Sequence record: NC_047885.1
DNA: 64,000 nucleotides
From: Escherichia phage chee24
Reading direction: 5' to 3' (one strand)
The number at the start of each line of letters is the position of its first letter. Position 1 is the stretch's first letter. A program made the position numbers and the translations under genes. Below are positions 5,829-41,893 of the stretch, piece by piece. The notes under the pieces were generated by a model. It did not search any database. It was given only the letters and a program-made list of their open reading frames with translations, and had not been told where the DNA came from.

Positions 5829-6094
5829 GGTAAAAAGGTAGTGTTAACAACTGCAATCAATTTTAAGCGGCCTAAAACGCTTTCTAACGAGCAAAACGCT
5901 ATAGGGTAATATTAAAGTAAAGCCTCAACGCGTCGCCCTGGTGACTTCGCCGTGTTTTGCTCTTTACTATACCGCTGCGCGTTTAACATAAAAATAAGCG
6001 TTAGGCAAGGAAAATAAAAAGGTAAAATAATATTTGCCCCTAGAAAGAAAATACCTTTATCATTCACTCACCGATTAACGAGGGAGGCCAACAA

Positions 6095-7087
6095 ATGCGG
6101 CTATATAAACCAGATAACGCAACCGTCTTAAAAGGTGCGTTGCGTAACCTGCTGGATGGTAGCAGAACAACCAGCATTAAACATTTTGTTTTCAATATTG
6201 AAACACTTCATCGTAATTTTCTTGATGATTACGATGCTTATAATATGAATAGTTTTCTACCGTTATATAATCAAGGGGCAACGCTTGTTTTATATAATCA
6301 GGAATCTCACTTGCTTACTAGTCGAGGGCCAGATACTGATTTTATTATAGTGAAAGGCAGTACAGTAAAAGCCTATGATGCGGGGGCGGGCTTAGAAGTT
6401 TTCACGATAGAAAATTATGAGCCTTATGATAAGGATCTTTATGACGTAGAAAATTTTCTCGATTCATTTTGGCGTTATTTATCAATTGGGTGGAATCGAT
6501 CAGATTATCACGGGTATCGTTTTGCGGCTATAATGGCTTTTGATGATAACGGTAATTTTTTGCTACCGTCGGAATTATACCCGTATGTATATAATGATTT
6601 AATAGAGGAGGCTGGTTTTACTTTCTGGAAAGATGAAGATCAGCCTATTGACAACACGGAAAAACATGCTGTAAATTCTAACACTCAAAGCGTTAACACT
6701 CAAATTACTGAAAACAAAGGAAAAAATACCATGACCAAGATCGCTAATATCGTTGCCGCCAATAAGTCTGCTGTTGTAAATGCTGCAAAACTGGAAGCGG
6801 GTAAAATTGCATTAACTCAAATCACGAAAGTAGCGGCTAAAAAAGCGCCGTTTATGATTAAAGGTTATATTGATACGCCGATTGGTCGGGTAGTTATTGC
6901 CAACCTGCTGAGCGTAGCGGTTGACCAGTACGCCCCAGCTAACCAGAAAGCGAAAGCGGTAGCAGGTGCAGCTATGGAAGCGGCTATGTTAGAAATGGTG
7001 CAAAGTTTTAACATCGCTGAAATGATCGATGAAATGGTGAAAGGTATTGATATTTCTACTTTTACCACTAGCACCGAAAGCGAGTAA
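6095..7087 (+). CDS. hypothetical protein (330 aa, Ala/Lys-rich C-terminal region)
   Basis: ORF with GAGGGAGG RBS; first gene of rightward cassette bounded by inverted DnaA-box/palindrome repeats. Confidence 0.6.
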   Translation: MRLYKPDNATVLKGALRNLLDGSRTTSIKHFVFNIETLHRNFLDDYDAYNMNSFLPLYNQGATLVLYNQESHLLTSRGPDTDFIIVKGSTVKAYDAGAGLEVFTIENYEPYDKDLYDVENFLDSFWRYLSIGWNRSDYHGYRFAAIMAFDDNGNFLLPSELYPYVYNDLIEEAGFTFWKDEDQPIDNTEKHAVNSNTQSVNTQITENKGKNTMTKIANIVAANKSAVVNAAKLEAGKIALTQITKVAAKKAPFMIKGYIDTPIGRVVIANLLSVAVDQYAPANQKAKAVAGAAMEAAMLEMVQSFNIAEMIDEMVKGIDISTFTTSTESE

Positions 7088-8181: not shown

Positions 8182-8394
8182 ATGATCCGCAACGTTTCCC
8201 TTGCCCGCTCCAAAGGCTTTAAGCTGGTGGACGTTAACACGTTTGAGCGGGAGGATTGTAAAATCGAATATGTAGCACGCAACAAAAATGCCTTTCGTGT
8301 TACAGAAAAGAAATTTGACAAGCGCGGCAACGTGATCGCTGAAACGGTTAAACACTTTGCCACCTTTTACGCTGCGTTTCGTGGGGTGTTATAA
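8182..8394 (+). CDS. hypothetical protein (70 aa)
   Basis: ORF with AAGGAG RBS. Confidence 0.5.
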   Translation: MIRNVSLARSKGFKLVDVNTFEREDCKIEYVARNKNAFRVTEKKFDKRGNVIAETVKHFATFYAAFRGVL

Positions 8395-8395
8395 A

Positions 8396-8740
8396 ATGGT
8401 TATTTATGAGGGCAATCGTTTTGTTGCTAATTGCCGTCCGGCATTACTAGCAAACTATTTAAATCAGGTTTCACCTGAATATAAAGGCGTCATTAATATT
8501 TACGAGGGTAAGGCGCACTATAAAATTAATGCGGTCGTTGCCCGTGAATTAGCATTTCAATTTTTGACCTTTGCATCTTGTGACGTTCAGGTTATGGGTG
8601 AAGCATTAATTGCAGAAAATGAAGATGATTTTATTAATATTTTCCGCAAGATATGCACCGAGCGCCTGATCATGAAAGGCGCATATATTCAATCCACTGC
8701 GGATAGCATTGAAACAGCGTTTCGAAAGGTGGCGCAATGA
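8396..8740 (+). CDS. hypothetical protein (114 aa)
   Basis: In-frame ATG overlapping upstream stop (coupled); inside track ORF 8357-8740. Confidence 0.5.
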   Translation: MVIYEGNRFVANCRPALLANYLNQVSPEYKGVINIYEGKAHYKINAVVARELAFQFLTFASCDVQVMGEALIAENEDDFINIFRKICTERLIMKGAYIQSTADSIETAFRKVAQ

Positions 8741-29889: not shown

Positions 29890-30117
29890 AATTGAAAACT
29901 CGCAGGGTTAGCGAAACCATCCTCAATTAGCATGTTCTAGAATACTAATCAAGTTATCTCCTATTGCACGCAGCTCAAGACGAGTACGAATTTTCAATTG
30001 TGGCGGCTCTCAGAAACTCTTCTATTCTAGCCCCAGAAGCTTACCCCCGAACGCATGTCGGGAAAGTCTTTCCAAGCGCATCAAATAGCACCGTTACACT
30101 TTGAGCCATTGATATAT

Positions 30118-30203
30118 CAAGGAACAGAAGGAGTTGAACCTTCACGAGATAGACCATTTATCTCAACCGCTTTTAAGGTATATTTCTAGGAGTGGATGTT
30201 CCT
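30118..30203 (-). other. tRNA-like element (perfect acceptor and T-arm, non-canonical D/anticodon region)
   Basis: Acceptor AGGAACA/TGTTCCT, T-arm GAAGG-TTCAACT-CCTTC, internal hairpin GAGATA..TATCTC; no standard anticodon loop found. Confidence 0.35.
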
Positions 30204-30257
30204 AGTAAACCTATTCGGCAGTCCCGTCTACCAATTCCGGCATATTCCAAGAATTTT

Positions 30258-30554: not shown

Positions 30555-30902
30555 CTAATAGTCACTCGTACTAGTGAAATCTTCTACTTTTCCACAAATT
30601 TTACAAGTCCTACGATGATAGTAGGTAATTTTTACTTTAGACCAGCCATCGTGATCATTACCTAGGTTTTCTGTTACTCCCCAAGTATGGGAACACTCAT
30701 TTTCAATTTGCTTAGTAAGAGCGTTATAGCGAGTATAAAACTCCTCCTGGGCAATAGCAAACTCTTTCTGTAGTTTATCACGAGCAATAATAGCACGTTC
30801 CAGATATGTTAAATCGGGCATTCCAGCTTTTTCAGCAGCATCTATAACCTTATCTTCATCTAAAGATGCTAAAAACTCTAGAGCTTTATCTTTTGCTAAC
30901 AT
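30555..30902 (-). CDS. hypothetical protein (115 aa)
   Basis: ORF. Confidence 0.5.
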   Translation of the reverse strand: MLAKDKALEFLASLDEDKVIDAAEKAGMPDLTYLERAIIARDKLQKEFAIAQEEFYTRYNALTKQIENECSHTWGVTENLGNDHDGWSKVKITYYHRRTCKICGKVEDFTSTSDY

Positions 30903-30924
30903 TATTATTATTACCTCAAGTGTT

Positions 30925-31015
30925 TGGCGGAAGAGGAGAGATTTGAACTCTCAAGCCGTTTTACCAGTCAGCCACTTTCCAAGCGGTTTTCGTCGCCAAT
31001 TCGATTTGCTCTTCC
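30925..31015 (-). tRNA. tRNA-Ser (GGA), class II
   Basis: 91 nt; perfect T-arm GAGAG-TTCAAAT-CTCTC; anticodon loop TTGGAAA; long variable arm; resembles E. coli tRNA-Ser architecture. Confidence 0.55.
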
Positions 31016-31127
31016 AATAATAAGATGATGCCTCTATCACGCCAGACAGTTACGCCTCGCTGGGATTCGAACCCATTAAAACAGCTCAACCGAGATAGTA
31101 GGTTTAATTTACTCTGACCATCAAATT

Positions 31128-31204
31128 TGGTGCGTGACAAGGGATTCGAACCCTCAAAACCCGACTTCTAAGGACGGTATGTATGCCAATTCCATCAATC
31201 ACGC
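31128..31204 (-). tRNA. tRNA with anticodon TAG (Leu-type anticodon, class I shape)
   Basis: 77 nt; 7-bp acceptor, T-loop TTCGAAT, anticodon loop CTTAGAA, discriminator A; short variable arm. Confidence 0.5.
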
Positions 31205-31209
31205 GTATT

Positions 31210-31288
31210 TGGTGGAGGATAACGAATTCGAATCGTTCTGATGTCCTCGGTGCAAGCGAGGTGTCCACTCCCAGCAGACCCATCCCCC
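31210..31288 (-). tRNA. tRNA-Ala (TGC)
   Basis: Hand-folded; anticodon arm CCTCG-CTTGCAC-CGAGG; G3-U70 pair in acceptor stem. Confidence 0.65.
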
Positions 31289-31546
31289 AAAATCTTTAGT
31301 TTACTAAGGCTATTAGCTCGGCGTAACTACAGCACCTTCGCTTCGAGCGGAAGGAACTGCGTCATCTCGCAAACCCGATACACTATTCAGTTGCCATGAA
31401 TCTAGTGGACTAATCTAGAACTTCTCCCAAATCGTAGGGATCGTGCTTTTTGGCAGCCAGTCCTAGGTCGAGCTAATACCTTAGTGAACTATGATGAGGA
31501 TTTCTCCCCATCAATTTATATAAATATTATAACAAGAAATTAAGCA

Positions 31547-31906
31547 TTAAGCAAGTACATTTTTGCAGATTTCTTGTAATTCCTTTACATCACGAACGTA
31601 AAGGTAGTCTGAACTTCCAGAGTGCATACTTTGCATAAACACACCCTCATCTGGCGCAGTATCCTTCAGAGTAATTCCTAACCAAAAAGCGGCAAAACGA
31701 GGTGTTACCTCACCTTGACTTGCCTTGAATACATCGGCTTCTGTGATCTCCTGACCAGTAGAAAGTCCCATATACGGTACGTTCAGATCAATATCTTTGT
31801 AGAATTCAGCTAGGTCTTGTTCGAAGTCCCAACCTTTAGAGATAGCGAACTCTATTGTTACATGACCGAAATAGCCTTGAACCTTGCTTGATAATTGCAT
31901 TTGCAA
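31547..31906 (-). CDS. hypothetical protein (119 aa)
   Basis: ORF. Confidence 0.5.
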   Translation of the reverse strand: MQMQLSSKVQGYFGHVTIEFAISKGWDFEQDLAEFYKDIDLNVPYMGLSTGQEITEADVFKASQGEVTPRFAAFWLGITLKDTAPDEGVFMQSMHSGSSDYLYVRDVKELQEICKNVLA

Positions 31907-31925
31907 TTCCTTATTTTGAGTTAAT

Positions 31926-31999
31926 TGGTACTCGGTGATAGAATCGAACTATCGCAACCGCCGTGTAAAGACGGGGTTCTCCCATTAAACTAACCGAGC
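31926..31999 (-). tRNA. tRNA-Val (TAC)
   Basis: Hand-folded; perfect T-arm GATAG-TTCGATT-CTATC; anticodon loop TTTACAC. Confidence 0.6.
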
Positions 32000-32132
32000 A
32001 AAAGATTTGCTACTAAAAATGCTTCGAACAGAAATTCACAAAATCCCGCTAAAAACATACCTATTGTAAAATCGGCAGAAAATACATAGGAATCTTTTAT
32101 TTTCTGCTTCATTAAGTAAAACCAGATAGTCA

Positions 32133-32450
32133 TTAAAATCTCTCCATTCTAAAGCCAATGAAGTAAGGTGCATTACACGGAACATGCTTAAGATCTTTAA
32201 GAGTAATTTTACGTCCTAAGCGTCGTTCCATACAAGTGAAACATAGAACAATATCTTTGGGCTGCTCTTTTCTTATCTGATCCCAGACCCAATCTTCAAC
32301 CATACACATTTCATGGTATTGTTCACAGTCTCGACAATAATGACACTGATGTTCTGGTACTTTTTGATTTTTAATACACAGTTCAGTAAAGCGTTTTCCG
32401 GCTCTGCCAGACATTTCTGATATTGTTTCTAGAACTTTGTTAATATTCAT
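32133..32450 (-). CDS. Cys/His-rich protein (105 aa)
   Basis: ORF with several Cys/His clusters. Confidence 0.45.
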   Translation of the reverse strand: MNINKVLETISEMSGRAGKRFTELCIKNQKVPEHQCHYCRDCEQYHEMCMVEDWVWDQIRKEQPKDIVLCFTCMERRLGRKITLKDLKHVPCNAPYFIGFRMERF

Positions 32451-32467
32451 AACAAATTCCTTTAAAT

Positions 32468-32546
32468 TGGTAGATCGCCTGGGACTCGAACCCAGAACCT
32501 TCCGATTAAAAGTCGGATGCTACTAAACCTATTGAGCTAGCGACCT
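32468..32546 (-). tRNA. tRNA-Lys (TTT)
   Basis: Hand-folded; anticodon arm TCCGA-CTTTTAA-TCGGA; T-arm CTGGG-TTCGAGT-CCCAG. Confidence 0.7.
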
Positions 32547-32739
32547 ATTAGTAGCCATTATATACTTCTTTAATAGAATAGACTTTTAGGTAAGAATGAT
32601 TAATCCCAAACTCCGCCATTACTTCTTTTTCATTTTTTCCATAATGTGCAAGTAAGAATCTTGAGGTATTATTACCTAAACGTTTGTCACTTACTACTAA
32701 TCGAAATACTTTCATTTCGAAATCCTCTATTAAAAGGGA

Positions 32740-32813
32740 AGCGGGTGCAGGAATCGAACCTACCTCTTTCTAGCTTATGAGACTAGCGATCTCTACCAGA
32801 GATCTAACCCGCA
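32740..32813 (-). tRNA. tRNA-Met/Ile2 (CAT)
   Basis: Hand-folded; anticodon arm CTAGT-CTCATAA-GCTAG; CCA not encoded; acceptor register uncertain. Confidence 0.55.
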
Positions 32814-32819
32814 ATTGTT

Positions 32820-32895
32820 TGGTCAGTGCGGCAGGACTCGAACCTGCGACCCGAAGCATCCAAGGCTCCCACGCTACCAACTGCGCTACGCACTG
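32820..32895 (-). tRNA. tRNA-Pro (TGG)
   Basis: Hand-folded; perfect acceptor; D-arm GCGC-AGTTGGTA-GCGT; anticodon loop CTTGGAT. Confidence 0.7.
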
Positions 32896-33347
32896 TTAAT
32901 TTTGTTAACTCACTTTATAAGATATATTATACAGAGAATTAAGTAAAATAGCAAATGAATTTTTAATAAATTTACTTATTATGTAGGCCGCCTGGAGGCT
33001 ACCAACCCCACGGCTGACAAAGAAGTTTGCGAGACTTCTCTTAAAAGCCAGAATAGACCCGCCGGTCTATCGGAACCTACATAATAAGTAAACTTTATAG
33101 TGTCATTCTAGGCAGGACTCGAACCTGCTATCACTTGTGCGGACTTACGAGAACCATTCTTTCACTCGAATCGAACGAGCTTCTGCCCTCGCCAAGCTGG
33201 TTTCCCCCATCAACCACGCTAGAATGTTAGATTGTTTTCAGTGCAAGAGTCCGAGTCTTGGACACGACCGCTTCGCAAGTACATAGGCAGCTTATCATGA
33301 GTCAGCACTTCCGAATTGCTAGCTCCGTGTTCTGCACTGAAATTTTA

Positions 33348-33695
33348 TTAGTTTAATCGTAAAGTATTATCTACTTCACCATTAATTGTTCGGCATTCCT
33401 CTGGAATTGCCGGGGTGGCCTTGTATTCCCACCATTCAGCACCGTCATATTCCCCACGTTCTAGCCAAGTTCCATCGGCAAACCATACATTACCATAAAG
33501 TAATTGTCCGCCGTATCCAGAATCATATTCAAAGTCTAGGTTATTAAGAAAATCCTCAATATCTTCTTCTGTATAGCCTAAAGGTAATACCCAGACTTTT
33601 TTGTCCCCATAATACCCAAATTCTATTTTAATACACTTAACTTCAGAATTAGTATTTTTTAAGGCAAGTAACAGCTCTTCTTTAGCATTACGCAT
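33348..33695 (-). CDS. hypothetical protein (115 aa)
   Basis: ORF. Confidence 0.5.
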   Translation of the reverse strand: MRNAKEELLLALKNTNSEVKCIKIEFGYYGDKKVWVLPLGYTEEDIEDFLNNLDFEYDSGYGGQLLYGNVWFADGTWLERGEYDGAEWWEYKATPAIPEECRTINGEVDNTLRLN

Positions 33696-33720
33696 AATAT
33701 ATTCTCATACTGAATTAATT

Positions 33721-33797
33721 TGGCGCGACCGATGGGATTTGAACCCACATTCTCTCCCGTGACAGGGGAGTACCATTACCAAGCCAGCCCCGGTCGC
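33721..33797 (-). tRNA. tRNA-Asp (GTC)
   Basis: Hand-folded; anticodon arm CTCCC-CTGTCAC-GGGAG; T-loop TTCAAAT. Confidence 0.7.
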
Positions 33798-33806
33798 ATA
33801 ATTTAT

Positions 33807-33992
33807 TTACTCAGCTTTGAGTTTTTCAATAGCTGCATTAAGTTCTTTAAGAAACTCTTTTCGTACATTAAGACGATTGAGACTTACTAGTATATCATGT
33901 TTAAGTTCTTCGATGTATTTCTTCTCAACTTCAATATTGTTGATAGTACTATCACGATGAACTTCTAGCTGCGCAATCACATTCTTGGACAT
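33807..33992 (-). CDS. hypothetical protein (61 aa)
   Basis: ORF. Confidence 0.4.
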   Translation of the reverse strand: MSKNVIAQLEVHRDSTINNIEVEKKYIEELKHDILVSLNRLNVRKEFLKELNAAIEKLKAE

Positions 33993-34094
33993 GCTTGTTT
34001 CCTCAGTTATTAATGAAAATGGTATCTGTGGCTGAATTCGATGTCAGCAATGATAGCTGGTTGGCTACCGGTTTACTTAACTCTACACAGAATT

Positions 34095-34172
34095 TGGCGG
34101 TTCCTGCTGGATTCGAACCAGCAACCCTCAACTTAACAAGATGCCGCTCTAACCAATTAGAGCTAAGGAACC
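34095..34172 (-). tRNA. tRNA-Asn (GTT)
   Basis: Hand-folded; perfect T-arm GCTGG-TTCGAAT-CCAGC; anticodon loop TTGTTAA; anticodon stem imperfect. Confidence 0.55.
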
Positions 34173-34667
34173 ATATAAGTCAGAACTAGAGTTAATACGT
34201 CCTAGATATTTACTAAGATCCCTAGAATTTATACTAAACCACTCATGTTCTTTTAAATCTTTGAAATACTGGTGAATTAGTTTTTCACCTTTTCGTTTGT
34301 CAAACCAAAAAGACCAATGCTCTAACTTATAATCCCTATAGGGGGAATAAGTCTGATATTGAGCTAATCTCTCTTTTGGATTTTGACTCATACCTATTTT
34401 ATACTGATTTTTCCATGCAGGATTACTAATACAGTATACAAAACCTTCGGAAATAGGAAGTTTATTTTCCTGCTTAAACTTTATAAAGGAAAGTGCAGCA
34501 AGTTTTCTTGAATACATAGTATTCGTATTCTTTTTGGTATTACCATTGGTTCCTGAAAGATTTATATATTCTTCTATAAATCTCTGGATTAGTTCTGCGG
34601 TTATATAGAAGGGCTCATTAGTAACAACGCCTTTCTTTACCAAACTATCAAAAACTTTTGTATGCAC
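34149..34667 (-). CDS. T5orf172-domain (GIY-YIG-like) protein
   Basis: 172 aa; the Pfam T5orf172 family is named after a 172-aa ORF of phage T5; 3' end overlaps tRNA-Asn call by about 24 nt. Confidence 0.6.
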   Translation of the reverse strand: MHTKVFDSLVKKGVVTNEPFYITAELIQRFIEEYINLSGTNGNTKKNTNTMYSRKLAALSFIKFKQENKLPISEGFVYCISNPAWKNQYKIGMSQNPKERLAQYQTYSPYRDYKLEHWSFWFDKRKGEKLIHQYFKDLKEHEWFSINSRDLSKYLGRINSSSDLYGSLALIG

Positions 34668-34688
34668 TACTTCTTTCCTTTAGTAATT

Positions 34689-34764
34689 TGGACGACCGCA
34701 TGAGATTTGAACTCACATAAAAAGGATTTGCAATCCTTCGCCTAAGCCATTCAGCCAACGGTCG
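34689..34764 (-). tRNA. tRNA-Cys (GCA)
   Basis: Hand-folded; anticodon arm AAGGA-TTGCAAA-TCCTT; T-loop TTCAAAT. Confidence 0.7.
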
Positions 34765-34942
34765 ATTTATCTTGTTTTTCGAGATCTTCAAATTCTAAAT
34801 CATTGAAGTTCCCTAGAGTACGGGAGTAGAACCCGTCTCCTACGTCATAGCCTGATTTACCACAATCACACATTTTAAACTCTCTATAACGAGTGAAAAT
34901 ATGTTCAGAACCACAACACTTAAATTTAACTAACATTTTCAT
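34751..34942 (-). CDS. Cys-containing small protein (63 aa)
   Basis: ORF. Confidence 0.4.
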   Translation of the reverse strand: MKMLVKFKCCGSEHIFTRYREFKMCDCGKSGYDVGDGFYSRTLGNFNDLEFEDLEKQDKSTVG

Positions 34943-35181
34943 TTAACACGCTCCGGTAAATCTTCGAGTTTATATTGGGTAGCCACATTAGCAGCATCTA
35001 GTAACAAACCCATATGTTTAAGAATCCTGGTGATAGCCTCGCCTTCTGCTTCTTCTACAAAGCAACGTAGATTAACGAAGTCAATACCACCATCCATACC
35101 AGAGAAAATGTTTAGTAAGCGAAACATTACCAGCTTACGTTCTTTCAATTCTTGTTCTGTCATGTTGCTTCTCCAGTTCAA
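34939..35181 (-). CDS. hypothetical protein (80 aa)
   Basis: ORF. Confidence 0.45.
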   Translation of the reverse strand: MNWRSNMTEQELKERKLVMFRLLNIFSGMDGGIDFVNLRCFVEEAEGEAITRILKHMGLLLDAANVATQYKLEDLPERVK

Positions 35182-35213
35182 TTTATGTAATTATTATATA
35201 GAACTTTTGGAAA

Positions 35214-35501
35214 CTAAGCAACTACATTTTTTAGGAATTTGATCCCTTTCTTTTTCTTCTTATATTTCCACGTTAATGGATTCTGTCGATTATGAACGCT
35301 TGAGATCTTTGTCTCGTCAAAGTTCTTCAATATCATGTAATCACAGGATAATTGTTCTAGTGGAATGTGATCACCGTCAAAAGCGTATACATAAGGCTGT
35401 TGACTAGCACGATAATGATAGACTTTGTTAATTCTACGTTTCAGCGACTTATCCGCGCAGTAAATAAAGAAGTTTTCAGGATGCATCAGCATCTCCTTCA
35501 A
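35214..35501 (-). CDS. hypothetical protein (95 aa)
   Basis: ORF. Confidence 0.45.
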   Translation of the reverse strand: MKEMLMHPENFFIYCADKSLKRRINKVYHYRASQQPYVYAFDGDHIPLEQLSCDYMILKNFDETKISSVHNRQNPLTWKYKKKKKGIKFLKNVVA

Positions 35502-35503
35502 TT

Positions 35504-35578
35504 TGGTGCACCCTGTTCGTATCGAACGAACCTCTCAAGCTCTTCAGGCAAGCGCTAATCCATCTCAGCTAAAGGTGC
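35504..35578 (-). tRNA. tRNA-Phe (GAA)
   Basis: Hand-folded; anticodon loop CTGAAGA; T-arm GTTCG-TTCGATA-CGAAC; anticodon stem has mismatches. Confidence 0.5.
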
Positions 35579-35584
35579 AAATTT

Positions 35585-35660
35585 TGGCAAACCCACTAGG
35601 ACTCGAACCTAGACCGTACGGTTTTGGAGACCGACATGCTGTCCAGTAACACTCTAGGAA
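35585..35660 (-). other. tRNA-Trp-like 3' portion (anticodon CCA) lacking a pairing 5' acceptor strand
   Basis: T-arm CTAGG-TTCGAGT-CCTAG, CCA end and CGGTCTCCAAAACCG anticodon region resembling tRNA-Trp; no complementary 5' acceptor found. Confidence 0.35.
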
Positions 35661-35669
35661 TGCAGAAAT

Positions 35670-35763
35670 TGGTACACCCACGGAGAATTGAACTCCGATT
35701 CTCAGATTGAACTCCGATTCTCAGATTGAAATCCTGATGTCCTAGCCATTAGACGATAGGTGT
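35670..35763 (-). tRNA. tRNA-Glu (TTC) carrying a 19-nt tandem duplication
   Basis: 94 nt; acceptor, D-arm and anticodon arm TCAGG-ATTTCAA-TCTGA intact; unit ATTGAACTCCGATTCTCAG repeated at 35687-35705 and 35706-35724. Confidence 0.5.
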
Positions 35764-35771
35764 ATTAAATT

Positions 35772-35859
35772 TGGTGGGCGTTAATGGAGTCGAACCACTC
35801 GAGTCGCAATGACCAGGGATTTACAATCCCCTCCGCTACCACTTACGGAATAAACGCCC
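35772..35859 (-). tRNA. tRNA-Tyr (GTA), class II
   Basis: 88 nt; anticodon arm GGGGA-TTGTAAA-TCCCT; long variable arm; perfect acceptor. Confidence 0.65.
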
Positions 35860-35987
35860 ATATTTAGAAGCATTCAAATACTTGTTTAAACACTTTTAAA
35901 TATGTTTCCGAATTAGATAACTATTATACCAAGTTTTAAGGCACTGAGCAAGTCAAATTTTAAAGAACTTGCTCAGTGCTGTATTAG

Positions 35988-36263
35988 TTAGTCGAACTTA
36001 GGAGTGATAGTTAAGGAGAACGGAAGTTCGAAAACTTCTTCGCCCTCATTACTAACGGTAACTACACGACCTTTAAGTTCAGACATTAAAATATCAATAT
36101 CAGCTTTTGCATCTGGAGCCATGCCAGCTTCAATACATTTAGCTTTAACTTCCGGTAAAAGCTCTACGTTATAGAGATAGAGCCACTCAATCTCACCTTC
36201 CCAGTCTTCCCAGGATTTGCAGATTGCACTTTCAATACCAGTTGCTACAACACGATTTTGCAT
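35988..36263 (-). CDS. hypothetical protein (91 aa)
   Basis: ORF. Confidence 0.5.
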   Translation of the reverse strand: MQNRVVATGIESAICKSWEDWEGEIEWLYLYNVELLPEVKAKCIEAGMAPDAKADIDILMSELKGRVVTVSNEGEEVFELPFSLTITPKFD

Positions 36264-36353
36264 TAATTAACTCCTTCATCAATTTATATAACTATTATAC
36301 CAGAAATTTAAAGTAAAAGGCAAGTACATTTTTAAAAATTCTGTTTGGAGGAG

Positions 36354-36560
36354 CTAAACTCCAGATTTTTCGGCCAAGTCTAGACTAATAAGAGTTATAG
36401 CCATAATTGCTGCACCGTGTTCTTTTTCTCCGGTGTTTTTAGCAGAGTCTATAATATCCTTAATCTGTTCGTAATAACTTTTTACTTCTTGTTCAATGCC
36501 TGCCTCGGCTATCATGCCTTTAGCCATGAATCGTTGCATGGTAATTTCAGGATTAGCCAT
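36354..36560 (-). CDS. hypothetical protein (68 aa)
   Basis: ORF. Confidence 0.4.
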   Translation of the reverse strand: MANPEITMQRFMAKGMIAEAGIEQEVKSYYEQIKDIIDSAKNTGEKEHGAAIMAITLISLDLAEKSGV

Positions 36561-36735
36561 GTTGTTTCTCCAGTTTCATTTTTAATAGTTTACAGATGAA
36601 ATCAACGTCTTCATCTGTGCCTAAGTCTCTATCCTCAAGGGTCGCCTTGAAGTTTTTCGTCAATTCCATGAGGATGACTTCCCTAGAACGACGTGTTGGC
36701 GGAGGTGGATGTCTATACATCTTATTTCCTTAATT

Positions 36736-36812
36736 TGGTAGGGGTGGTGGGATTCGAACCCACAAAACCTGAATTTTAAGTCCAGTACCTATGCCAATTC
36801 GATTACACCCCC
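36736..36812 (-). tRNA. tRNA with anticodon TAA (Leu-type anticodon, class I shape)
   Basis: Hand-folded; acceptor GGGGGTG/CACCCCT, T-arm GTGGG-TTCGAAT-CCCAC, anticodon arm CTGGA-CTTAAAA-TTCAG, discriminator A. Confidence 0.5.
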
Positions 36813-37107
36813 ATGTAATCAGTTTATTAGTTGATACATATTATAGCCTAAAGAAAACCCTACTACTAATCCTACGAACCAACCAATATAATAATCTTTT
36901 AATTTCACGGGTGTCAACCTCGTTCAATATCTAGAGAAATACCACAGGTAGGATTAATGCCTGTGCCTTTGCACGTCGGACAAACCCAGATATTACAGAA
37001 TGTATCCCCTGCTTCTGCATCAGAACTTTTCCAACTCCTAGACAGTTAGGACAGGCACATTCTTCTAGCTCTTGCTTGAGTTCTTGAAACTTAGACATAT
37101 AGTTTCC

Positions 37108-37296
37108 TTATTCAATTACTTTTGAGGCTTCAAGGGAGTCGATATAGTGTACGTTTTCTACCATGATCATATAATCTGCCACTTTATCCATAGCCTGAGC
37201 TTCAGAGGTAGCCCTGGCTAACCTATATCCTTTTTTATATTCATCCGGGTATTCCCTATCTGGAATAAACACAACACAAACTAGGTATAGTTCCAC
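37108..37296 (-). CDS. hypothetical protein (62 aa)
   Basis: ORF. Confidence 0.4.
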   Translation of the reverse strand: MELYLVCVVFIPDREYPDEYKKGYRLARATSEAQAMDKVADYMIMVENVHYIDSLEASKVIE

Positions 37297-37317
37297 TTGT
37301 AACCTCTCTAATCAAGA

Positions 37318-37395
37318 TGGTGGCTCCCCGAGGATTCGAACCTACGTACCTTCCGGTTATGAGCCGGATGCTCATACCATATGAGCTTGAGAACC
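37318..37395 (-). tRNA. tRNA-Met/Ile2 (CAT)
   Basis: Hand-folded; perfect anticodon arm TCCGG-CTCATAA-CCGGA; D-arm GCTC..GAGC; T-stem weak. Confidence 0.6.
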
Positions 37396-37401
37396 AGAAT
37401 T

Positions 37402-37490
37402 TGGCGGAAGAAGTGGGAATCGAACCCACAAGGCTATATTTCAAACCGACAGATTAGCAATCTGCTGCAATACCGTTATGCTATTCTTCC
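37402..37490 (-). tRNA. tRNA-Ser (GCT), class II
   Basis: 89 nt; perfect acceptor GGAAGAA/TTCTTCC; anticodon arm GCAGA-TTGCTAA-TCTGT; long variable arm. Confidence 0.65.
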
Positions 37491-37511
37491 GAATTTATAA
37501 GATATATTATA

Positions 37512-38030
37512 TTAGAAATTTAGCTTCATAGCAAGAAAATTTTTCAAGTTTTCGGTAGACATCTCATCCACATCTACAGGAGAAACAAATCCATTTAATT
37601 GTCTAGCAAATTTTTCACCAGCAGGATCATTATCCCCAACAGCTACCAATTTAAAAGGTAGTAATTTCAATTGCTTTAACAACGCTTTTCCTGGAGAAGA
37701 ACCCAACATTGCCAGGGCTGGATAACCAGCGTTATGTAATGCTACGGCCTTAAATACAGATTCCGCAACCAATACTACTTTTTCATCCCCATTGAGAGTT
37801 TCCAGCCCCCATACACACTGTGTAGTAGAATAAGTAAAATACTTAGCTTCAAAAGGAGATTTACCATGACCTTTTGGAGCAGAAGGATTATAAGTCTGAT
37901 AGCCTCTCAACATCCCAGAGAAGTCATACAATGGGACTGTTAGCCATCCTTCCGGACTTAACCAGCAATGATATTTATCTGTATCAAACCCTCTAGATAA
38001 GAGATGTTCTGTTAGTTCATCAACAGTCAT
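37512..38030 (-). CDS. Toprim-like domain protein
   Basis: 172 aa; VVLVAES ... VAVGDNDPAGEKFARQL resembles Toprim acidic motifs; promoter at 38059-38087. Confidence 0.5.
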   Translation of the reverse strand: MTVDELTEHLLSRGFDTDKYHCWLSPEGWLTVPLYDFSGMLRGYQTYNPSAPKGHGKSPFEAKYFTYSTTQCVWGLETLNGDEKVVLVAESVFKAVALHNAGYPALAMLGSSPGKALLKQLKLLPFKLVAVGDNDPAGEKFARQLNGFVSPVDVDEMSTENLKNFLAMKLNF

Positions 38031-38058
38031 ATTAGATTCCTCTCAAATTTATAAATAT

Positions 38059-38087
38059 ATTATACAGAGGATTTAGCATTCAAGCAA
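38059..38087 (-). promoter_or_regulatory. sigma70-type early promoter (-35 TTGCTT, -10 TATAAT)
   Basis: ATTATA-N17-AAGCAA; drives 37512-38030. Confidence 0.6.
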
Positions 38088-38203
38088 TTGAATTTTTTAA
38101 CTTTTTAGAGGAAAATCACAGGATGCTTACGGGTAGCAGGTAAGTGGTCAGGACCGAAATTTGTGACCCCACTAAAAATCTGGGGTCAATTTTTAAAGAC
38201 CCC

Positions 38204-38232
38204 TTGACATTTTTGCCGGGGTAGTGTAAAGT
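38204..38232 (+). promoter_or_regulatory. sigma70 promoter (-35 TTGACA, 17-nt spacer, -10 TAAAGT)
   Basis: Consensus -35; preceded by overlapping GACCCC/GGGGTC hairpins. Confidence 0.55.
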
Positions 38233-38294
38233 ATATGTTATGGATGAGTGATCAAAGAGACACACATTTTCTATATACTAGGAGGTGTCAAAAA

Positions 38295-39275
38295 ATGACA
38301 GAAGAAGTAGCTAAGAGTCCTGAAACCGTCGCTAGCGTAGCAGCAGAACTGCATCGTCACGAGGAATCAGATAAGAAAAAGTGGGAGAAAGTCAAAGCCT
38401 ACGAAGAAGAACATCGTGAACACGATGATAAAGATGAAGAAGATGACGATGATGAACATTGTCATAAATATGGAAAACATAAAATGCAAGAACCAGTAAA
38501 CGTATTTACTAATGGCTTCCCTGGCATGGGTGCATTCCCAGCTAACGCAAGTGCTTTCGGTGGAGAAGGTATGGGTCTATTCGGAGCTATCCTAATCGGT
38601 GCTCTATTAACAGGCGGATTTGGTGGTTTTGGTGGTTTTGGCCGTGGTGCTGGCGTTGCCGCTGAAGGGACTGCTGTGGACGCGATCCTTTCTAACCAAG
38701 ATACTGCAAGTATTCTAGCTGCAATCAATACTACTCGTACAGAAGCTAACCAGGGCACTGGGGCTGTTCTAAGCGCAGTAAACGGTGTGGGAGCTGCTCA
38801 AGCTGCTAGCACTCAGCAAGTTCTGACTACTATCTACGGTACAGGTGCTAATCTGTCAAACCAGATCTGTGCTGAAACTCGTAACGTTATTCAGGGTCAG
38901 TTCGATCTTTCTCGTCAGATGGATCAATCTTTCGCTGCTAACCAGATCGCACGTGCTCAAGATAAGTTTGACTCTGCTCAGATTGCTTTCCAGCAGTCTA
39001 TTCAGACCAATAACCAGTTTGCCGCTGTTCAGGCTCAGATGTGTGCTAACCAGAATGCTATAGAGCGTCAGCTTGCTGAATGTTGCTGTGAACTTCAGAC
39101 TGCGATCGCTGGTGTAACTACTGCGCGTATCCAGGACGAACTGAATGAATGCCGTCTGCGTGAAGCAATCGCTCAAGGTAGTGGTGCTAACGGTCAGGTA
39201 ATTAACCAAATCGCTGTAAGTCTTGGTGCTATCACTCAGACTCTGGCTGGTCTGCAGGCTAAACTGCCGGCTTAA
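38295..39275 (+). CDS. low-complexity protein: acidic N-terminus, Gly-rich hydrophobic segment, Gln/Ala-rich C-terminus
   Basis: 326 aa from ATG with AGGAGG RBS inside track ORF 38235-39275; consensus promoter at 38204-38232. Confidence 0.6.
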   Translation: MTEEVAKSPETVASVAAELHRHEESDKKKWEKVKAYEEEHREHDDKDEEDDDDEHCHKYGKHKMQEPVNVFTNGFPGMGAFPANASAFGGEGMGLFGAILIGALLTGGFGGFGGFGRGAGVAAEGTAVDAILSNQDTASILAAINTTRTEANQGTGAVLSAVNGVGAAQAASTQQVLTTIYGTGANLSNQICAETRNVIQGQFDLSRQMDQSFAANQIARAQDKFDSAQIAFQQSIQTNNQFAAVQAQMCANQNAIERQLAECCCELQTAIAGVTTARIQDELNECRLREAIAQGSGANGQVINQIAVSLGAITQTLAGLQAKLPA

Positions 39276-41095: not shown

Positions 41096-41597
41096 TTTAA
41101 GTATTTTTAAGAACTCTCGTAAAAACTCTTAAAAATACAGACGATACCGGGAGAGTCATAAGTCTCACTCATTAAGTATTTCAAGACAAAATACAGTAAC
41201 GTCTATTATTTTCCAGTTTAAGTCAAGGTGACTTAGTGGTTATGTCCTGCGGTATACTGAGGACTAGGTTAGGTTAGGGTCATGACTCCCCACCTTTTTG
41301 CTGCTACTCAACAGGAGTTATCGCGAATTACCTGTGCTATTGTGCACCATTAGTGGCATCTCTCATGCCAGCATTTCCCACTTTGTGGATAGTTTGAAAA
41401 ACTACTCCGATATGGAGAAAGAACTTCACTATCCTAGAATACCTTCTAAAGTTCTTCTTTAGCCTGGACATAGTTAAATCGTAATAAAACTATTCAGCAG
41501 ACTGGTTGGTTAGTCTGGAACCAACTACCGCGTGGTTTAGGCAGTGCGCAACTAACCTCGGAAGCTTTTACATTAAAAGCACCAGTTATCCAGTTCT

Positions 41598-41670
41598 TAC
41601 CGACCGTAGGATTCGAACCTACATCTTCCACCAGTTACGGCTTGATAATACCGTTTTATACTAGATCGGC
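41598..41670 (-). other. tRNA-like element (acceptor and perfect T-arm; anticodon arm unresolved)
   Basis: T-arm GTAGG-TTCGAAT-CCTAC and acceptor GCCGATC/GGTCGGT; CCA not encoded. Confidence 0.35.
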
Positions 41671-41893
41671 AGTGTTACTACATAAGTGATTTCCACACCC
41701 CACTATCAGTAAATTAGAGAAGAGTTTAGGGGAGAGGTTTCAGACGCCCCATTTTACACGTTCTAGCCACTAACCGGGATTGCCGCCCCCTGTGTACTAG
41801 TTTTCCAACTAACCCACCGACTCTATTCAATGCGCTCCGGTTGGGATTCTGCACTCAGCGTAATCGGCTCGCTGTTCTCTAATTTATGAATAT

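What the first reader, a model, noticed from the sequence alone, without database searches (positions are those of the whole stretch)
32975..33345. Inverted-repeat-bracketed structured elements and a 121-nt tRNA-like RNA between tRNA genes
Two about 100-nt segments are closed by long inverted repeats (CTTATTATGTAGG/CCTACATAATAAG at 32980-33092; TCAGTGCA/TGCACTGA at 33238-33340) and contain internal hairpins. Between them, 33105-33225 pairs a perfect 7-bp acceptor-like stem (ATTCTAG/CTAGAAT) around two T-arm-like hairpins. No ORF explains these; they look like stable small RNAs or processing scaffolds.
Basis: seen in the sequence. Interest (0 to 1): 0.5.

Follow-up and report, generated by a model that had tools for sequence, protein, structure and literature searches.

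The report
Known T5 tRNA-like stable RNAs
This stretch holds two small RNAs already catalogued in phage T5 (stable RNA IV and the tRNA-like RNA 2) plus a third, equally conserved neighbour that I found annotated as an RNA in none of the records examined; the two catalogued ones are shown here to be real structured RNAs, and the job of all three is still unknown.

Summary
The window is a T5-like phage, 100% identical to 'T5-like pork27'. All 26 tRNA genes, and this region, read on the minus strand. The three segments closed by inverted repeats are real (perfect arms of 17, 10 and 8 nt, beyond shuffles).

- **32980-33082** is rnaIV, annotated in the T5 and BF23 GenBank records as 'stable RNA with unknown functions'.
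- **33101-33226** is rna2, annotated there as 'tRNA-like RNA with unknown functions'.

Covariance models and covariation support both folds, RNA IV in three lineages and RNA 2 in four (a fifth was found later). RNA IV is a four-way junction with near-invariant GGCG and CUCGCA(A) loops. RNA 2 is a complete tRNA frame whose anticodon loop carries a 27-53-nt structured insert. That insert pairs with the would-be anticodon. With the insert removed in silico, ARAGORN calls tRNA-Arg(CCG) in four of seven sequences.

- **33236-33342** is not annotated as an RNA in any record examined. It sits in a tRNA slot and is as conserved as true tRNA genes (99.4%), but shows no covariation.

Rfam has none of the three. 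The region is dispensable in the laboratory.

Verdict: observation confirmed, interpretation right, largely already known. My best guess at function is non-decoding tRNA mimics cut out by the tRNA-processing machinery.

The parts
32975..33088 (-). Element A = homolog of T5/BF23 rnaIV. The annotated mature 103-nt RNA maps to 32980-33082. The fold is a four-way junction. The closing stem P1 pairs 33088-33072 with 32992-32975. H1 is 33070-33053 (7 bp, GGCG loop). H2 is 33051-33014 (5+8 bp). H3 is 33010-32993.
   Evidence: 98% identical to T5 rnaIV. BF23 note: 'stable RNA with unknown functions'. CM R1 hits at 135 bits. Covariation: 96.4% of cells paired, 20 of 42 pairs changed on both sides, 0/500 shuffles. 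Fold z = -5.9.
33027..33033 (-). Seven-nt apical loop CUCGCAA of RNA IV hairpin H2. It has the shape of an anticodon loop (U at position 2, A at positions 6-7).
   Evidence: Columns C56-A61 (CUCGCA) are invariant in alignment A4, which includes My1 and L009, while the stem beneath covaries. ARAGORN at an 80% threshold reads it as anticodon CGC.
33101..33226 (-). Element B = homolog of T5/BF23 rna2, a tRNA frame with an interrupted anticodon loop. Acceptor stem: 33225-33219 with 33111-33105. D arm: 33216-33198. Anticodon-stem equivalent: 33197-33193 with 33137-33133. T arm: 33128-33112.
   Evidence: 96% identical to T5 rna2. BF23 note: 'tRNA-like RNA with unknown functions'. CM R2 hits at 156 bits and also matches true tRNAs end to end at 14-24 bits. 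Covariation: 98.4% paired, 21 of 31 pairs changed on both sides, 0/500 shuffles.
33144..33191 (-). 48-nt insert in the anticodon loop of RNA 2 (cgagggc...ctcgtaag). It contains a second T-arm-like hairpin at 33180-33164. Its GGGC pairs with G + UCC of the downstream UCCGCA (33143-33138), masking the would-be anticodon CCG.
   Evidence: ARAGORN in relaxed intron mode. With the insert removed, default ARAGORN calls tRNA-Arg(CCG) in the window, T5, Epseptimavirus and My1 sequences. The hairpin shows a full compensatory swap in My1 and KPN4 (helix 5). The insert is only 27 nt in L102.
33236..33342 (-). Element C: a ~107-nt segment, not annotated as an RNA in any record examined, closed by the 10-11-bp stem UUUCAGUGCA(G)/(U)UGCACUGAAA. 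It occupies a tRNA slot between the upstream ORF (or a tRNA in other phages) and RNA 2.
   Evidence: Present in 218 phage records. In every listed row the feature under the match is 'none', 'hypothetical protein' or an unannotated record. Mean identity to the window is 99.4%, against 99.5% and 99.0% for true tRNAs and 92.9% for the neighbouring ORF. No pair covaries. Fold z = -1.2.
32926..32954 (-). Sigma-70 promoter (TTGCTA-17-TATAAT), equivalent to T5/BF23 promoter P13a. It starts the next transcription unit (tRNA-Pro, tRNA-fMet), so RNA IV is the last element of the upstream unit.
   Evidence: Promoter scan, 10 of 12 matches. Aligns to the annotated P13a of BF23 and T5.
33348..33695 (-). 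115-aa ORF, the homolog of T5p065 / BF23 ORF trn 2.10. It lies immediately upstream on the same strand and is presumably co-transcribed with C, B and A.
   Evidence: ORF list. Same position as T5p065 and trn 2.10. No Pfam family.

Best explanation
Three consecutive non-coding RNA genes lie on the minus strand of a T5-like phage tRNA cluster. In order of transcription they are element C (33342-33236), RNA 2 (33226-33101) and RNA IV (33088-32975).

Shown:
- A and B are the homologs of the GenBank-annotated T5/BF23 genes rnaIV and rna2.
- Both have RNA-level structures kept by compensatory change across Demerecviridae lineages.
- RNA 2 is a tRNA body with a 7-bp acceptor stem, a D arm with a GG loop, a 5-nt variable loop and a canonical T arm. 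Its anticodon loop carries a 27-53-nt structured insert that pairs with the would-be anticodon, so it cannot decode as transcribed.
- RNA IV is a cloverleaf-order four-way junction with near-invariant GGCG and CUCGCA(A) loops.
- C is as conserved as real tRNA genes and sits in a tRNA slot.

Inferred:
- The three are transcribed with the upstream ORF from an early promoter further upstream, as one polycistronic RNA that ends before promoter P13a.
- The host tRNA-maturation machinery cuts them out. RNase P would cut at the 5' side of the acceptor-like stems. RNase E and exonucleases would work in the short A/U-rich spacers.
- They accumulate as stable, non-decoding tRNA mimics.
- They serve an accessory role, engaging a tRNA-recognising factor and/or punctuating and protecting the transcript. 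They have no essential role in translation.

My confidence differs by layer: about 0.97 for the identity of A and B, about 0.9 for their RNA folds, about 0.65 that C is an RNA gene, and about 0.4 for the processing-and-mimic mechanism.
For: **Identity**
- The window is 100% identical to T5-like phages.
- A and B are 98% and 96% identical to the T5 features rnaIV and rna2.
- The BF23 record calls them 'stable RNA with unknown functions' and 'tRNA-like RNA with unknown functions'. The T5 record annotates the same features.

**Structure**
- R1 was built without My1 yet finds My1 full length at E = 3e-6.
- On alignment A6, 96.4% of cells pair and 20 of 42 pairs changed on both sides. Shuffles reaching this: 0/500. 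Slid controls pair 38-50%.
- R2 was built from T5 and Epseptimavirus sequences only. It finds the My1-like, Sugarlandvirus and metagenomic copies at 84-94 bits and a fifth lineage, L102, at 41 bits.
- On alignment A9, 98.4% of cells pair and 21 of 31 pairs changed on both sides. Shuffles: 0/500. Slid controls: 27-44%.
- Many conserved G-U pairs exist only on the minus-strand reading.

**tRNA-likeness of B**
- R2 matches genuine tRNAs end to end, including the window's tRNA-Pro at 20.6 bits.
- Its T arm shares an 18-nt exact match with the tRNA-Pro gene.
- With the insert removed, default ARAGORN calls tRNA-Arg(CCG) in 4 of 7 sequences tested.

**Slot logic**
- C, B and A are separated by 9-12-nt A/U-rich spacers.
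- In other phages the same elements follow a tRNA's CCA end by 3-7 nt.
- TrudiGerster's copy of C ends in an encoded ...CACUGAA-A-CCA.

**Constraint on C**
- Mean identity is 99.4%, against 99.5% and 99.0% for tRNA-Pro and tRNA-Asp and 92.9% for the ORF.

**Accessory role**
- The viable T5Mos deletion 30661-38625 spans this region, since C lies at 33090-33202 of AY543070.
- Phage tRNA clusters are known counter-defence loci.

**Parallel**
- T4's tRNA cluster is followed by the small stable RNAs rnaD and rnaC.
Against: - No transcript, processing or binding data were available here. 'Stable RNA' rests on a GenBank note.
- The original 1980s papers could not be retrieved.
- RNase P processing is inferred only from geometry and position.
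- B and C do not fold better than shuffled sequence (z = -1.0 and -1.2). That is also true of real tRNAs.
- C has no compensatory change. Some single variants break pairs in every fold I could draw.
- No CCA is encoded after B in the T5 group (GACA).
- Invariant unpaired motifs (CUCGUAAnUCCGCA, GAUGGGGAA) imply a specific partner that I cannot name.
- Dispensability in the laboratory is equally compatible with no important function.
Confidence: 0.6

Rival explanations
1. The elements are decaying tRNA pseudogenes: neutral relics of duplications and insertions in a recombination-prone tRNA cluster, with no function of their own.
For: - B is a tRNA frame with an insert.
- By eye, C's ends resemble the tRNA-Pro acceptor strands and trailer: CAGTGC...GCACTGA, then AACAAT.
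- The window's own tRNA-Glu carries a fresh 19-nt internal duplication.
- Presence and absence in the cluster is mosaic.
- The region can be deleted.
Against: - Helices are kept by compensatory changes across lineages whose loop sequences stay invariant.
- C is as conserved as working tRNA genes and more conserved than the adjacent ORF.
- BF23 depositors list rnaIV as a stable RNA.
Confidence: 0.1
2. The elements act at the DNA level. The inverted repeats and T-arm-like sequences would be recognition or recombination sites, for example for the homing endonucleases that populate phage tRNA clusters, and RNA structure would be incidental.
For: - T4 SegB recognises a 27-bp site that contains the conserved T-stem-loop motif of tRNA genes.
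- T5-like tRNA regions carry HNH endonuclease genes.
- The window has a T5orf172/MUG113-domain ORF overlapping tRNA-Asn.
- L019 has a deletion that joins rna2's 3' end to the tRNA-Pro trailer.
- C's near-identity across genera could reflect recent spread.
- A is strongly structured on both strands.
Against: - Compensatory substitutions, and many G-U pairs that would be A-C mismatches on the other strand, point to selection on a minus-strand RNA.
- A 113-nt stretch of uniform conservation is far longer than a homing-endonuclease site (SegB's is 27 bp).
- Several single changes in C give G-U on the minus-strand reading.
Confidence: 0.07
3. RNA 2 is a split-reading tRNA gene. The 27-53-nt insert would be removed by an endonuclease plus an RNA ligase such as host RtcB, or by an unknown phage activity, to give a functional tRNA-Arg(CCG).
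For: - Relaxed ARAGORN models a 74-nt tRNA-Arg(CCG) with a 48-nt intron.
- With the insert removed, default ARAGORN calls tRNA-Arg(CCG) in 4 of 7 sequences tested.
- The loop N-U-CCG-C-A can be drawn in all seven, and UCCGCA is invariant.
- The window otherwise has only tRNA-Arg(UCU).
Against: - No Rfam intron family matches.
- From general knowledge: 27-53 nt is far below known self-splicing group I introns, bacteria lack the archaeal/eukaryal tRNA splicing endonuclease, and position 37 is almost always a purine in working tRNAs. Here it would be C.
- The KPN4, L037 and L102 sequences are not called even after removing the insert.
- The insert itself carries invariant sequence and a covarying hairpin. 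That fits a functional unspliced RNA.
Confidence: 0.04
4. The elements are mainly cis-acting transcript elements: a 3' stabiliser, terminator or insulator at the end of the upstream early operon, just before promoter P13a. In this view they are not trans-acting RNAs.
For: - RNA IV is the last element before P13a.
- It is exceptionally stable (-48.9 kcal/mol, z = -5.9).
- Its H1 hairpin followed by CUGGCUUUUA scores as terminator-like.
- The three follow an ORF directly.
Against: - The terminator-like hairpin lies inside the annotated 103-nt stable RNA, so transcription passes it.
- The closing stem has an A/U-rich base and no U tract.
- Invariant loop sequences (GGCG, CUCGCA) and the tRNA-type elbow of B are not needed for simple end protection.
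- In other phages the elements sit between tRNAs, not after an ORF.
Confidence: 0.15

Closest known systems
Phage T5 / BF23 rnaIV ('RNAIV, stable RNA with unknown functions'; GenBank AY692264, AJ604530)
   Same: Element A is 98% identical to it. It has the same neighbours (rna2 upstream, promoter P13a downstream) and the same strand.
   Different: Nothing material. The window copy has a perfectly paired closing stem, whereas most relatives carry an A-C mismatch at pair 7, next to the annotated mature 5' end.
Phage T5 / BF23 rna2 ('RNA2, tRNA-like RNA with unknown functions')
   Same: Element B is 96-98% identical to it, in the same position.
   Different: The window copy has one extra G in the D loop. 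The window and T5 lack the tRNA-Gly(GCC) and the ~147-nt element that follow rna2 in BF23; tRNA-Gly(GCC) also follows rna2 in Epseptimavirus and My1.
Phage T4 small stable RNAs rnaC (species 1, 139 nt) and rnaD (species 2, 119 nt)
   Same: These are small stable RNAs placed at the transcriptional end of a phage tRNA gene cluster, on the tRNA strand. T4 rnaC ends with a canonical T arm next to its 3' end. R2 scores it at 13.9 bits, in the range it gives true tRNAs.
   Different: No detectable homology. R1 finds nothing in T4 (best 9.5 bits), and R2's score is no better than for any tRNA. This is an analogy of layout, not family membership.
Canonical bacterial/phage tRNA (Rfam RF00005)
   Same: B has a 7-bp acceptor stem, a D arm with a GG loop, a 5-nt variable loop and a T arm GCAGG-UUCGAGU-CCUGC, all covarying. 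After in-silico removal of the insert it is called tRNA-Arg(CCG).
   Different: There is no free 7-nt anticodon loop, and the would-be anticodon is paired in helix P4. It is not called by default ARAGORN or by Rfam even at E up to 10. C8 replaces U8. No CCA is encoded in the T5 group.
tRNA-like processing modules such as the mascRNA element of MALAT1, and the tRNA-like domain of tmRNA (comparison from general knowledge)
   Same: In both, a tRNA-shaped acceptor/T-arm module without decoding function recruits tRNA enzymes such as RNase P.
   Different: ARAGORN finds no tmRNA and there is no tag reading frame. B keeps a full D arm. Processing by RNase P is not shown here.

Membership tests
T5-family rnaIV gene | Sequence homology to the annotated rnaIV feature of T5/BF23 | tested here: met
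   98% identity over 101 of 103 nt to T5 rnaIV. R1 scores 135 bits.
T5-family rnaIV gene | Same genomic position: downstream of rna2, immediately upstream of promoter P13a, on the tRNA strand | tested here: met
   Alignment to BF23 and the T5 feature table. The promoter is found at 32954-32926.
T5-family rnaIV gene | Accumulates as a discrete stable ~103-nt RNA in infected cells | not testable with these tools
   Only the depositors' note 'stable RNA' is available. No expression data were accessible.
T5-family rna2 gene | Sequence homology to the annotated rna2 feature, and conserved position | tested here: met
   96% identity over 125 nt to T5 rna2 and 97.6% to the BF23 copy. R2 scores 156 bits.
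tRNA (RF00005) | 7-bp acceptor stem, D arm with GG, and T arm with a UUCRA loop | tested here: met
   Helices 1, 2 and 6 of A9 are 98-99% paired with compensatory changes. R2 aligns end to end with true tRNAs.
tRNA (RF00005) | 5-bp anticodon stem closing a free 7-nt anticodon loop | tested here: not met
   The stem (29-33/94-98 of A9) closes a 55-nt domain in the window copy. UCC of the potential anticodon loop pairs with GGG of the insert.
tRNA (RF00005) | Reaches detection thresholds of standard tRNA finders | tested here: not met
   No ARAGORN call at default settings. No RF00005 match over B even at E up to 10. It is called only with relaxed score and intron settings, or after deleting the insert.
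tRNA (RF00005) | 3' CCA and aminoacylation | not testable with these tools
   The T5 group has GACA after the acceptor stem, KPN4 has UCCA, and L037 has ACUA. Charging cannot be assessed.
tmRNA | tRNA-like domain plus a tag-peptide reading frame | tested here: not met
   ARAGORN tmRNA search is negative. No Rfam tmRNA match.
tRNA gene with group I intron | A self-splicing group I intron in the anticodon loop | tested here: not met
   The insert is 27-53 nt. No Rfam intron family matches at E up to 10.
T4 species 1 / species 2 RNA (rnaC / rnaD) | Sequence or structure homology to T4 rnaC or rnaD | tested here: not met
   R1's best hit in the T4 region is 9.5 bits. R2 gives 13.9 bits on rnaC, the same range as T4 tRNAs.
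Intrinsic terminator | G+C-rich hairpin immediately followed by a U tract at the end of the unit | tested here: inconclusive
   One weak terminator-like site (H1 of RNA IV) lies inside the annotated RNA. There is none after the closing stem.

The most novel reading that the evidence does not exclude
Element C is a genuine, previously unrecognised RNA gene. The C / RNA 2 / RNA IV array would be a set of anticodon-less or anticodon-masked tRNA mimics. These would titrate or distract a host factor aimed at tRNAs, such as a tRNA-cleaving or tRNA-modifying defence effector or a tRNA-processing enzyme. That would extend the known counter-defence role of T5 tRNAs (PARIS, retron Eco7) to non-decoding RNAs.
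Probability: 0.1. Interest if true: 0.75.

Novelty: already known. Interest (0 to 1): 0.3.

Why it matters
Two of the three elements have been in the T5 and BF23 GenBank records for about two decades. Their function has never been worked out, and modern pipelines miss them. Among the listed phage records with a match, only the old BF23 tRNA-region record carries RNA names; the rest show 'none', 'hypothetical protein' or a neighbouring tRNA. One record even places ORFs over the region.

This work adds several things.
- A covariation-backed fold for each of the two known RNAs.
- The finding that RNA 2 is a tRNA-Arg(CCG)-type frame whose anticodon is masked by an insert.
- Their spread over several Demerecviridae lineages: RNA IV in Tequintavirus, Epseptimavirus and Myunavirus; RNA 2 also in Sugarlandvirus and one uncultivated contig.
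- A third element with tRNA-grade conservation that is not annotated as an RNA in any record examined.

T5 tRNAs are now known to neutralise tRNA-cleaving defences. That makes these non-decoding neighbours a concrete target for deletion and defence-panel experiments.

Tried and rejected
- **Rfam.** At gathering thresholds over the whole window, and at E up to 10 over the region, only tRNAs and two meaningless weak hits appeared.
- **Host mimicry.** blastn of the region against 5,426 E. coli genomes found nothing.
- **Pattern search for RNA IV.** ACCGGCGGGT-N(12-40)-CTCGCAA in viral contigs gave 47 loci. R1 matched none of the new ones, so they are chance matches.
- **L009 copy of RNA IV.** L009 has a by-eye homolog, with the GGCG and CUCGCA loops kept and the stems swapped. 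Neither R1 nor nhmmer found it, so I did not count it.
- **Metagenome scan for RNA 2.** It added one new variant (L037). Four of the 15 hits were chance matches.
- **Remote homologs of C.** nhmmer found none. The ~60-nt hairpin element at the same place in My1, L009 and L034 is not detectably related.
- **Covariation for C.** There was too little variation, and no pair changed on both sides.
- **CGAG/CUCG pairing inside RNA 2.** The single-sequence minimum-energy fold predicts it, but G36 varies without compensation, so I rejected it.
- **ARAGORN's 80%-threshold cloverleaf for RNA IV.** I rejected it because it destroys the covarying hairpin H1.
- **Literature.** No accessible paper describes these RNAs.
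- **MAFFT alignment of C with tRNA-Pro.** It was uninformative. The end similarity is a by-eye observation only.
Full report
**What the window is.** The 501 bases around the finding are 100% identical to five 'Bacteriophage T5-like' isolates (pork27, pork29 and others). They are 96-98% identical to many Tequintavirus genomes, and 486 phage records match in all. ARAGORN finds 26 tRNA genes between 28 kb and 41.7 kb, all on the minus strand. None lies between tRNA-Pro (32820-32895) and tRNA-Asp (33721-33797). Everything below is therefore read on the minus strand.

**Check of the observation.**
- The three long-range inverted repeats exist. Their arms are 32968-32987/33076-33095 (20 nt, 95% complementary), 33236-33245/33333-33342 (10 nt, perfect) and 33104-33111/33219-33226 (8 nt, perfect).
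The other two are exact.
- In 300 shuffles of the region, an arm of 10 nt or more occurred in 3.3%, one of 13 nt or more never, and three or more arms of 8 nt or more in 0.7%.
- No ORF above 49 aa overlaps the region.

**Two of the three elements are already annotated.** The BF23 tRNA-region record (AJ604530) and the T5 st0 genome (AY692264) both carry misc_RNA features here.
- rnaIV (103 nt) is noted as 'stable RNA with unknown functions'.
- rna2 (125 nt) is noted as 'tRNA-like RNA with unknown functions'.
- They lie between ORF trn 2.10 / T5p065 and promoter P13a.
- Mapped onto the window, rnaIV is 32980-33082 (98% identical) and rna2 is 33101-33226 (96% identical).
- The newer complete BF23 genome does not annotate these RNAs. 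Nor does almost any listed record among the 466 that match.
- BF23 carries tRNA-Gly(GCC) plus ~147 nt between rna2 and rnaIV. tRNA-Gly(GCC) also follows rna2 in Epseptimavirus and My1. Both are missing from T5 and from this window.

**RNA IV (element A).**
- The minus strand folds at -48.9 kcal/mol with z = -5.9.
- I wrote a structure with five helices. These are a 17-bp closing stem with one bulge, hairpin H1 (7 bp, GGCG loop), hairpin H2 (5+8 bp, seven-nt loop CUCGCAA) and hairpin H3 (5 bp).
- I built covariance model R1 from 19 Tequintavirus and Epseptimavirus sequences.
- R1 finds the Pectobacterium phage My1 copy, which was not in the seed, full length at 35 bits and E = 3e-6. It finds nothing in about 40 unrelated contigs.
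- On the resulting alignment, 96.4% of cells pair and 20 of 42 pairs changed on both sides. No shuffle out of 500 reaches this, and slid controls pair only 38-50%. That alignment is fitted to the model, which favours it. The My1 stems are nevertheless almost wholly re-written while the GGCG and CUCGCA loop letters stay.
- Pair 7 of the closing stem is an A-C mismatch in 20 of 27 distinct sequences, right at the annotated mature 5' end.
- The helix order is that of a cloverleaf: closing stem, short arm, long arm with a seven-nt loop carrying U at position 2 and A at positions 6-7, then a short arm. There is no D-loop or T-loop signature.
- ARAGORN reads it as tRNA-Ala(CGC) only at an 80% threshold, with a fold that contradicts hairpin H1.

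**RNA 2 (element B).**
- Model R2 was built from 14 Tequintavirus and Epseptimavirus sequences.
- It finds My1-like copies at 93-94 bits, Klebsiella Sugarlandvirus KPN4 at 87 bits and a metagenomic variant at 84 bits. It later finds a fifth lineage on a 109-kb uncultivated contig at 41 bits.
- On alignment A9, 98.4% of cells pair and 21 of 31 pairs changed on both sides. Shuffles: 0/500. Slid controls: 27-44%.
- The fold has these parts:
  - a 7-bp acceptor stem, completely re-written in KPN4;
  - two unpaired bases, then a 5-bp D stem with a GAUGGGGAA loop;
  - a 5-bp stem in the place of the anticodon stem;
  - a 4-5-nt variable loop (U)GAUA;
  - a canonical T arm GCAGG-UUCGAGU-CCUGC, which shares an 18-nt exact match with the window's tRNA-Pro gene.
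- R2 also aligns end to end with genuine tRNAs at 14-24 bits.
- In place of an anticodon loop, the stem encloses 55 nt in the window copy.
  - GGGY pairs with RUCC, and one of those pairs covaries (C-G to U-A).
  - A short purine/pyrimidine helix follows: AGAA/UUCU in T5, GAGA/UCUC in KPN4, GAAGU/ACUUC in L102. I read this helix by eye.
  - A second T-arm-like hairpin, GCUCG-UUCGAUU-CGAGU, has four of its five pairs swapped in My1 and KPN4.
  - L102 lacks that hairpin altogether.

**RNA 2 read as an interrupted tRNA.**
- ARAGORN, allowed long introns and a 90% threshold, models B as a 74-nt tRNA-Arg(CCG) with a 48-nt insert between loop position 32 and U33.
- When I delete the insert in silico, default ARAGORN calls tRNA-Arg(CCG) in the window, T5, Epseptimavirus and My1 sequences. 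It does not in KPN4, L037 or L102.
- RNA 2 is thus best described as a tRNA gene whose anticodon loop has been invaded by a structured insert. The first three letters of the invariant UCCGCA (U33, C34, C35) are paired with the insert.
- I do not think the insert is spliced. It is far too small for a group I intron, no Rfam intron family matches, position 37 would be C, and the insert itself is under sequence and structure constraint.
- The window's tRNA-Glu (35670-35763) carries a 19-nt tandem duplication inside the gene. This shows how such insertions can arise in this cluster.

**Element C (33236-33342).**
- It occurs in 218 phage records, at 99% identity or more in 163 of them. In every listed row the feature under the match is 'none', 'hypothetical protein' or an unannotated record.
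- Over 31 loci that hold all three elements, mean identity to the window is as follows.

| Feature | Mean identity to the window |
|---|---|
| C | 99.4% |
| tRNA-Pro | 99.5% |
| tRNA-Asp | 99.0% |
| RNA 2 | 97.0% |
| RNA IV | 94.7% |
| Upstream ORF | 92.9% |

- In three Epseptimavirus genomes, C follows the ...CCACCA end of a tRNA-like gene by 3-4 nt and precedes RNA 2 by the usual spacer. It therefore occupies a tRNA slot.
- TrudiGerster's copy reads ...CACUGAA-A-CCA, an encoded CCA after a 7-bp stem and a discriminator base.
- By eye, its two ends resemble tRNA-Pro: CAGTGC...GCACTGA followed by AACAAT.
- RNAalifold finds no pair with changes on both sides.
- Five single transitions give G-U in one minus-strand model. 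Others, at my positions 8, 75 and 85, break pairs.
- The A-to-T changes at positions 90-91 favour a GUCC/GGAC hairpin over a T-arm-like one.
- The folding z-score is insignificant on both strands.
- The closing stem and the conservation are solid. The internal fold, and even the RNA nature of C, are inferred.

**Context and likely mechanism.**
- The order on the transcript is ORF (33695-33348), 5 nt, C, 9 nt, RNA 2, 12 nt, RNA IV, then promoter P13a (TTGCTA-17-TATAAT, 32954-32926).
- In relatives the same modules sit 3-7 nt after the CCA ends of tRNAs.
- I infer, but have not shown, that each module is released like a tRNA. RNase P would cut at the acceptor-like stem, and nucleases would work in the A/U-rich spacers. 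RNA 2 would present a normal acceptor, T-arm and D-arm elbow to tRNA-binding proteins while being unable to decode.
- The viable T5Mos deletion 30661-38625 removes the whole region (with T5 coordinates), so the role is accessory.
- T5 tRNAs are known to rescue infection from tRNA-cleaving defences (PARIS; retron Eco7).
- T-even tRNA clusters behave as counter-defence loci that a homing endonuclease can amplify.
- A decoy or sponge role for these non-decoding mimics is therefore attractive but untested.
- A purely cis role in transcript punctuation or end protection is the main alternative.

**Comparison with what is known.**
- Membership in the T5 rnaIV and rna2 gene families is established by sequence and synteny.
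- RNA 2 fails two defining features of a tRNA: a free anticodon loop and detection thresholds. It should be called tRNA-like.
- T4 has the same layout, with a tRNA cluster followed by the small stable RNAs rnaD and rnaC. My models detect no homology to them.
- None of the three elements has an Rfam family, and none resembles E. coli DNA.

**Verdict.** The core of the finding, RNA IV and RNA 2, is already known and annotated, with function unknown. The new pieces are the covariation-backed folds, the masked tRNA-Arg(CCG) reading of RNA 2, the spread across lineages, and the tRNA-grade conservation of element C.

Noticed in passing
window 35670-35763 (minus strand): ARAGORN calls tRNA-Glu(UUC) at 94 nt because the gene contains a perfect 19-nt tandem duplication (ATCTGAGAATCGGAGTTCA twice). 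The duplication spans the anticodon-stem, variable-loop and T-stem region. The BF23 gene is 77 nt. It may be an inactivated tRNA, or a snapshot of how inserts like that of RNA 2 arise.
   Followed up: partly
window 29891-29996, 30001-30107, 30108-30251, 31308-31478, 34020-34092 (all minus strand): The other small RNAs annotated in T5/BF23 are also present in the window at 97-100% identity: rnaIII, rnaI, rna1, rna2H and rna3. None is detected by R1 or R2, so they are not detectable paralogs of RNA IV or RNA 2.
   Followed up: partly
L001 3184-3330 (BF23); also L034, L022, L005, L009: BF23 carries tRNA-Gly(GCC) followed by a ~147-nt unannotated segment between rna2 and rnaIV. It has a conserved core (CAAGGCGAT.AGTTTCCGGCCGGTTCT.GTCGCTGAAAATCC) and a GTAAAC-GAAA-GTTTAC hairpin. 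The core recurs in Epseptimavirus loci and in the My1-like L009. The window and T5 lack the whole block. It looks like another structured RNA candidate.
   Followed up: no
L007 ~935-1000, L009, L034 ~6480-6550: In My1, a My1-like contig and one Epseptimavirus, the slot upstream of rna2 holds a different ~60-nt hairpin element (ACAGAGT...ACTCTGT closing stem) in place of element C.
   Followed up: partly
L019 ~5860-5880 (IMG/VR UViG_2706796320): This phage has a deletion that joins the 3' end of rna2 directly to the trailer of tRNA-Pro (CTAGAATGACCAAACAATTGCGGG). RNA IV, P13a and most of tRNA-Pro are removed. This looks like recombination between the near-identical T arms.
   Followed up: no
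L015 ~8350-8450; L093 ~1120-1205: Further long tRNA-like genes that standard annotation skips sit in these clusters. One has acceptor GTGGAGA...TCTCCAC + ACCA with about 100 nt between. Another is an ~88-nt GGGGTCT...AGACTCC + ACCA element just upstream of C.
   Followed up: no
window 34149-34667 (minus strand): A 172-aa ORF with MUG113/T5orf172 domains (E = 1e-15 and 6e-12) overlaps the 3' part of tRNA-Asn (34095-34172). From general knowledge these domains are related to GIY-YIG nucleases, so it may be a mobile nuclease-like gene embedded in the tRNA array.
   Followed up: partly
window 41597-41671 (minus strand): ARAGORN calls a tRNA-Ser with the unusual anticodon ACT. Rfam scores it only 34.5 bits, the second-weakest tRNA match in the window.
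   Followed up: no
L095 663-889 (Salmonella phage vB_Sen_I1, MT233524): This GenBank record places plus-strand 'hypothetical protein' ORFs directly over RNA 2 and element C. Many other listed records also show 'hypothetical protein' under the match. These small RNAs are being mis-annotated as coding.
   Followed up: partly
L102 1050-1153 (IMG/VR UViG_3300032322_002195, 108.8-kb contig): A divergent 103-nt RNA 2 homolog (41 bits) has only a 27-nt insert, a simple GAAGU-AGUU-ACUUC hairpin. The second T-arm-like hairpin is therefore not universal, whereas GGG...UCGUAAUUCCGCA is kept.
   Followed up: partly
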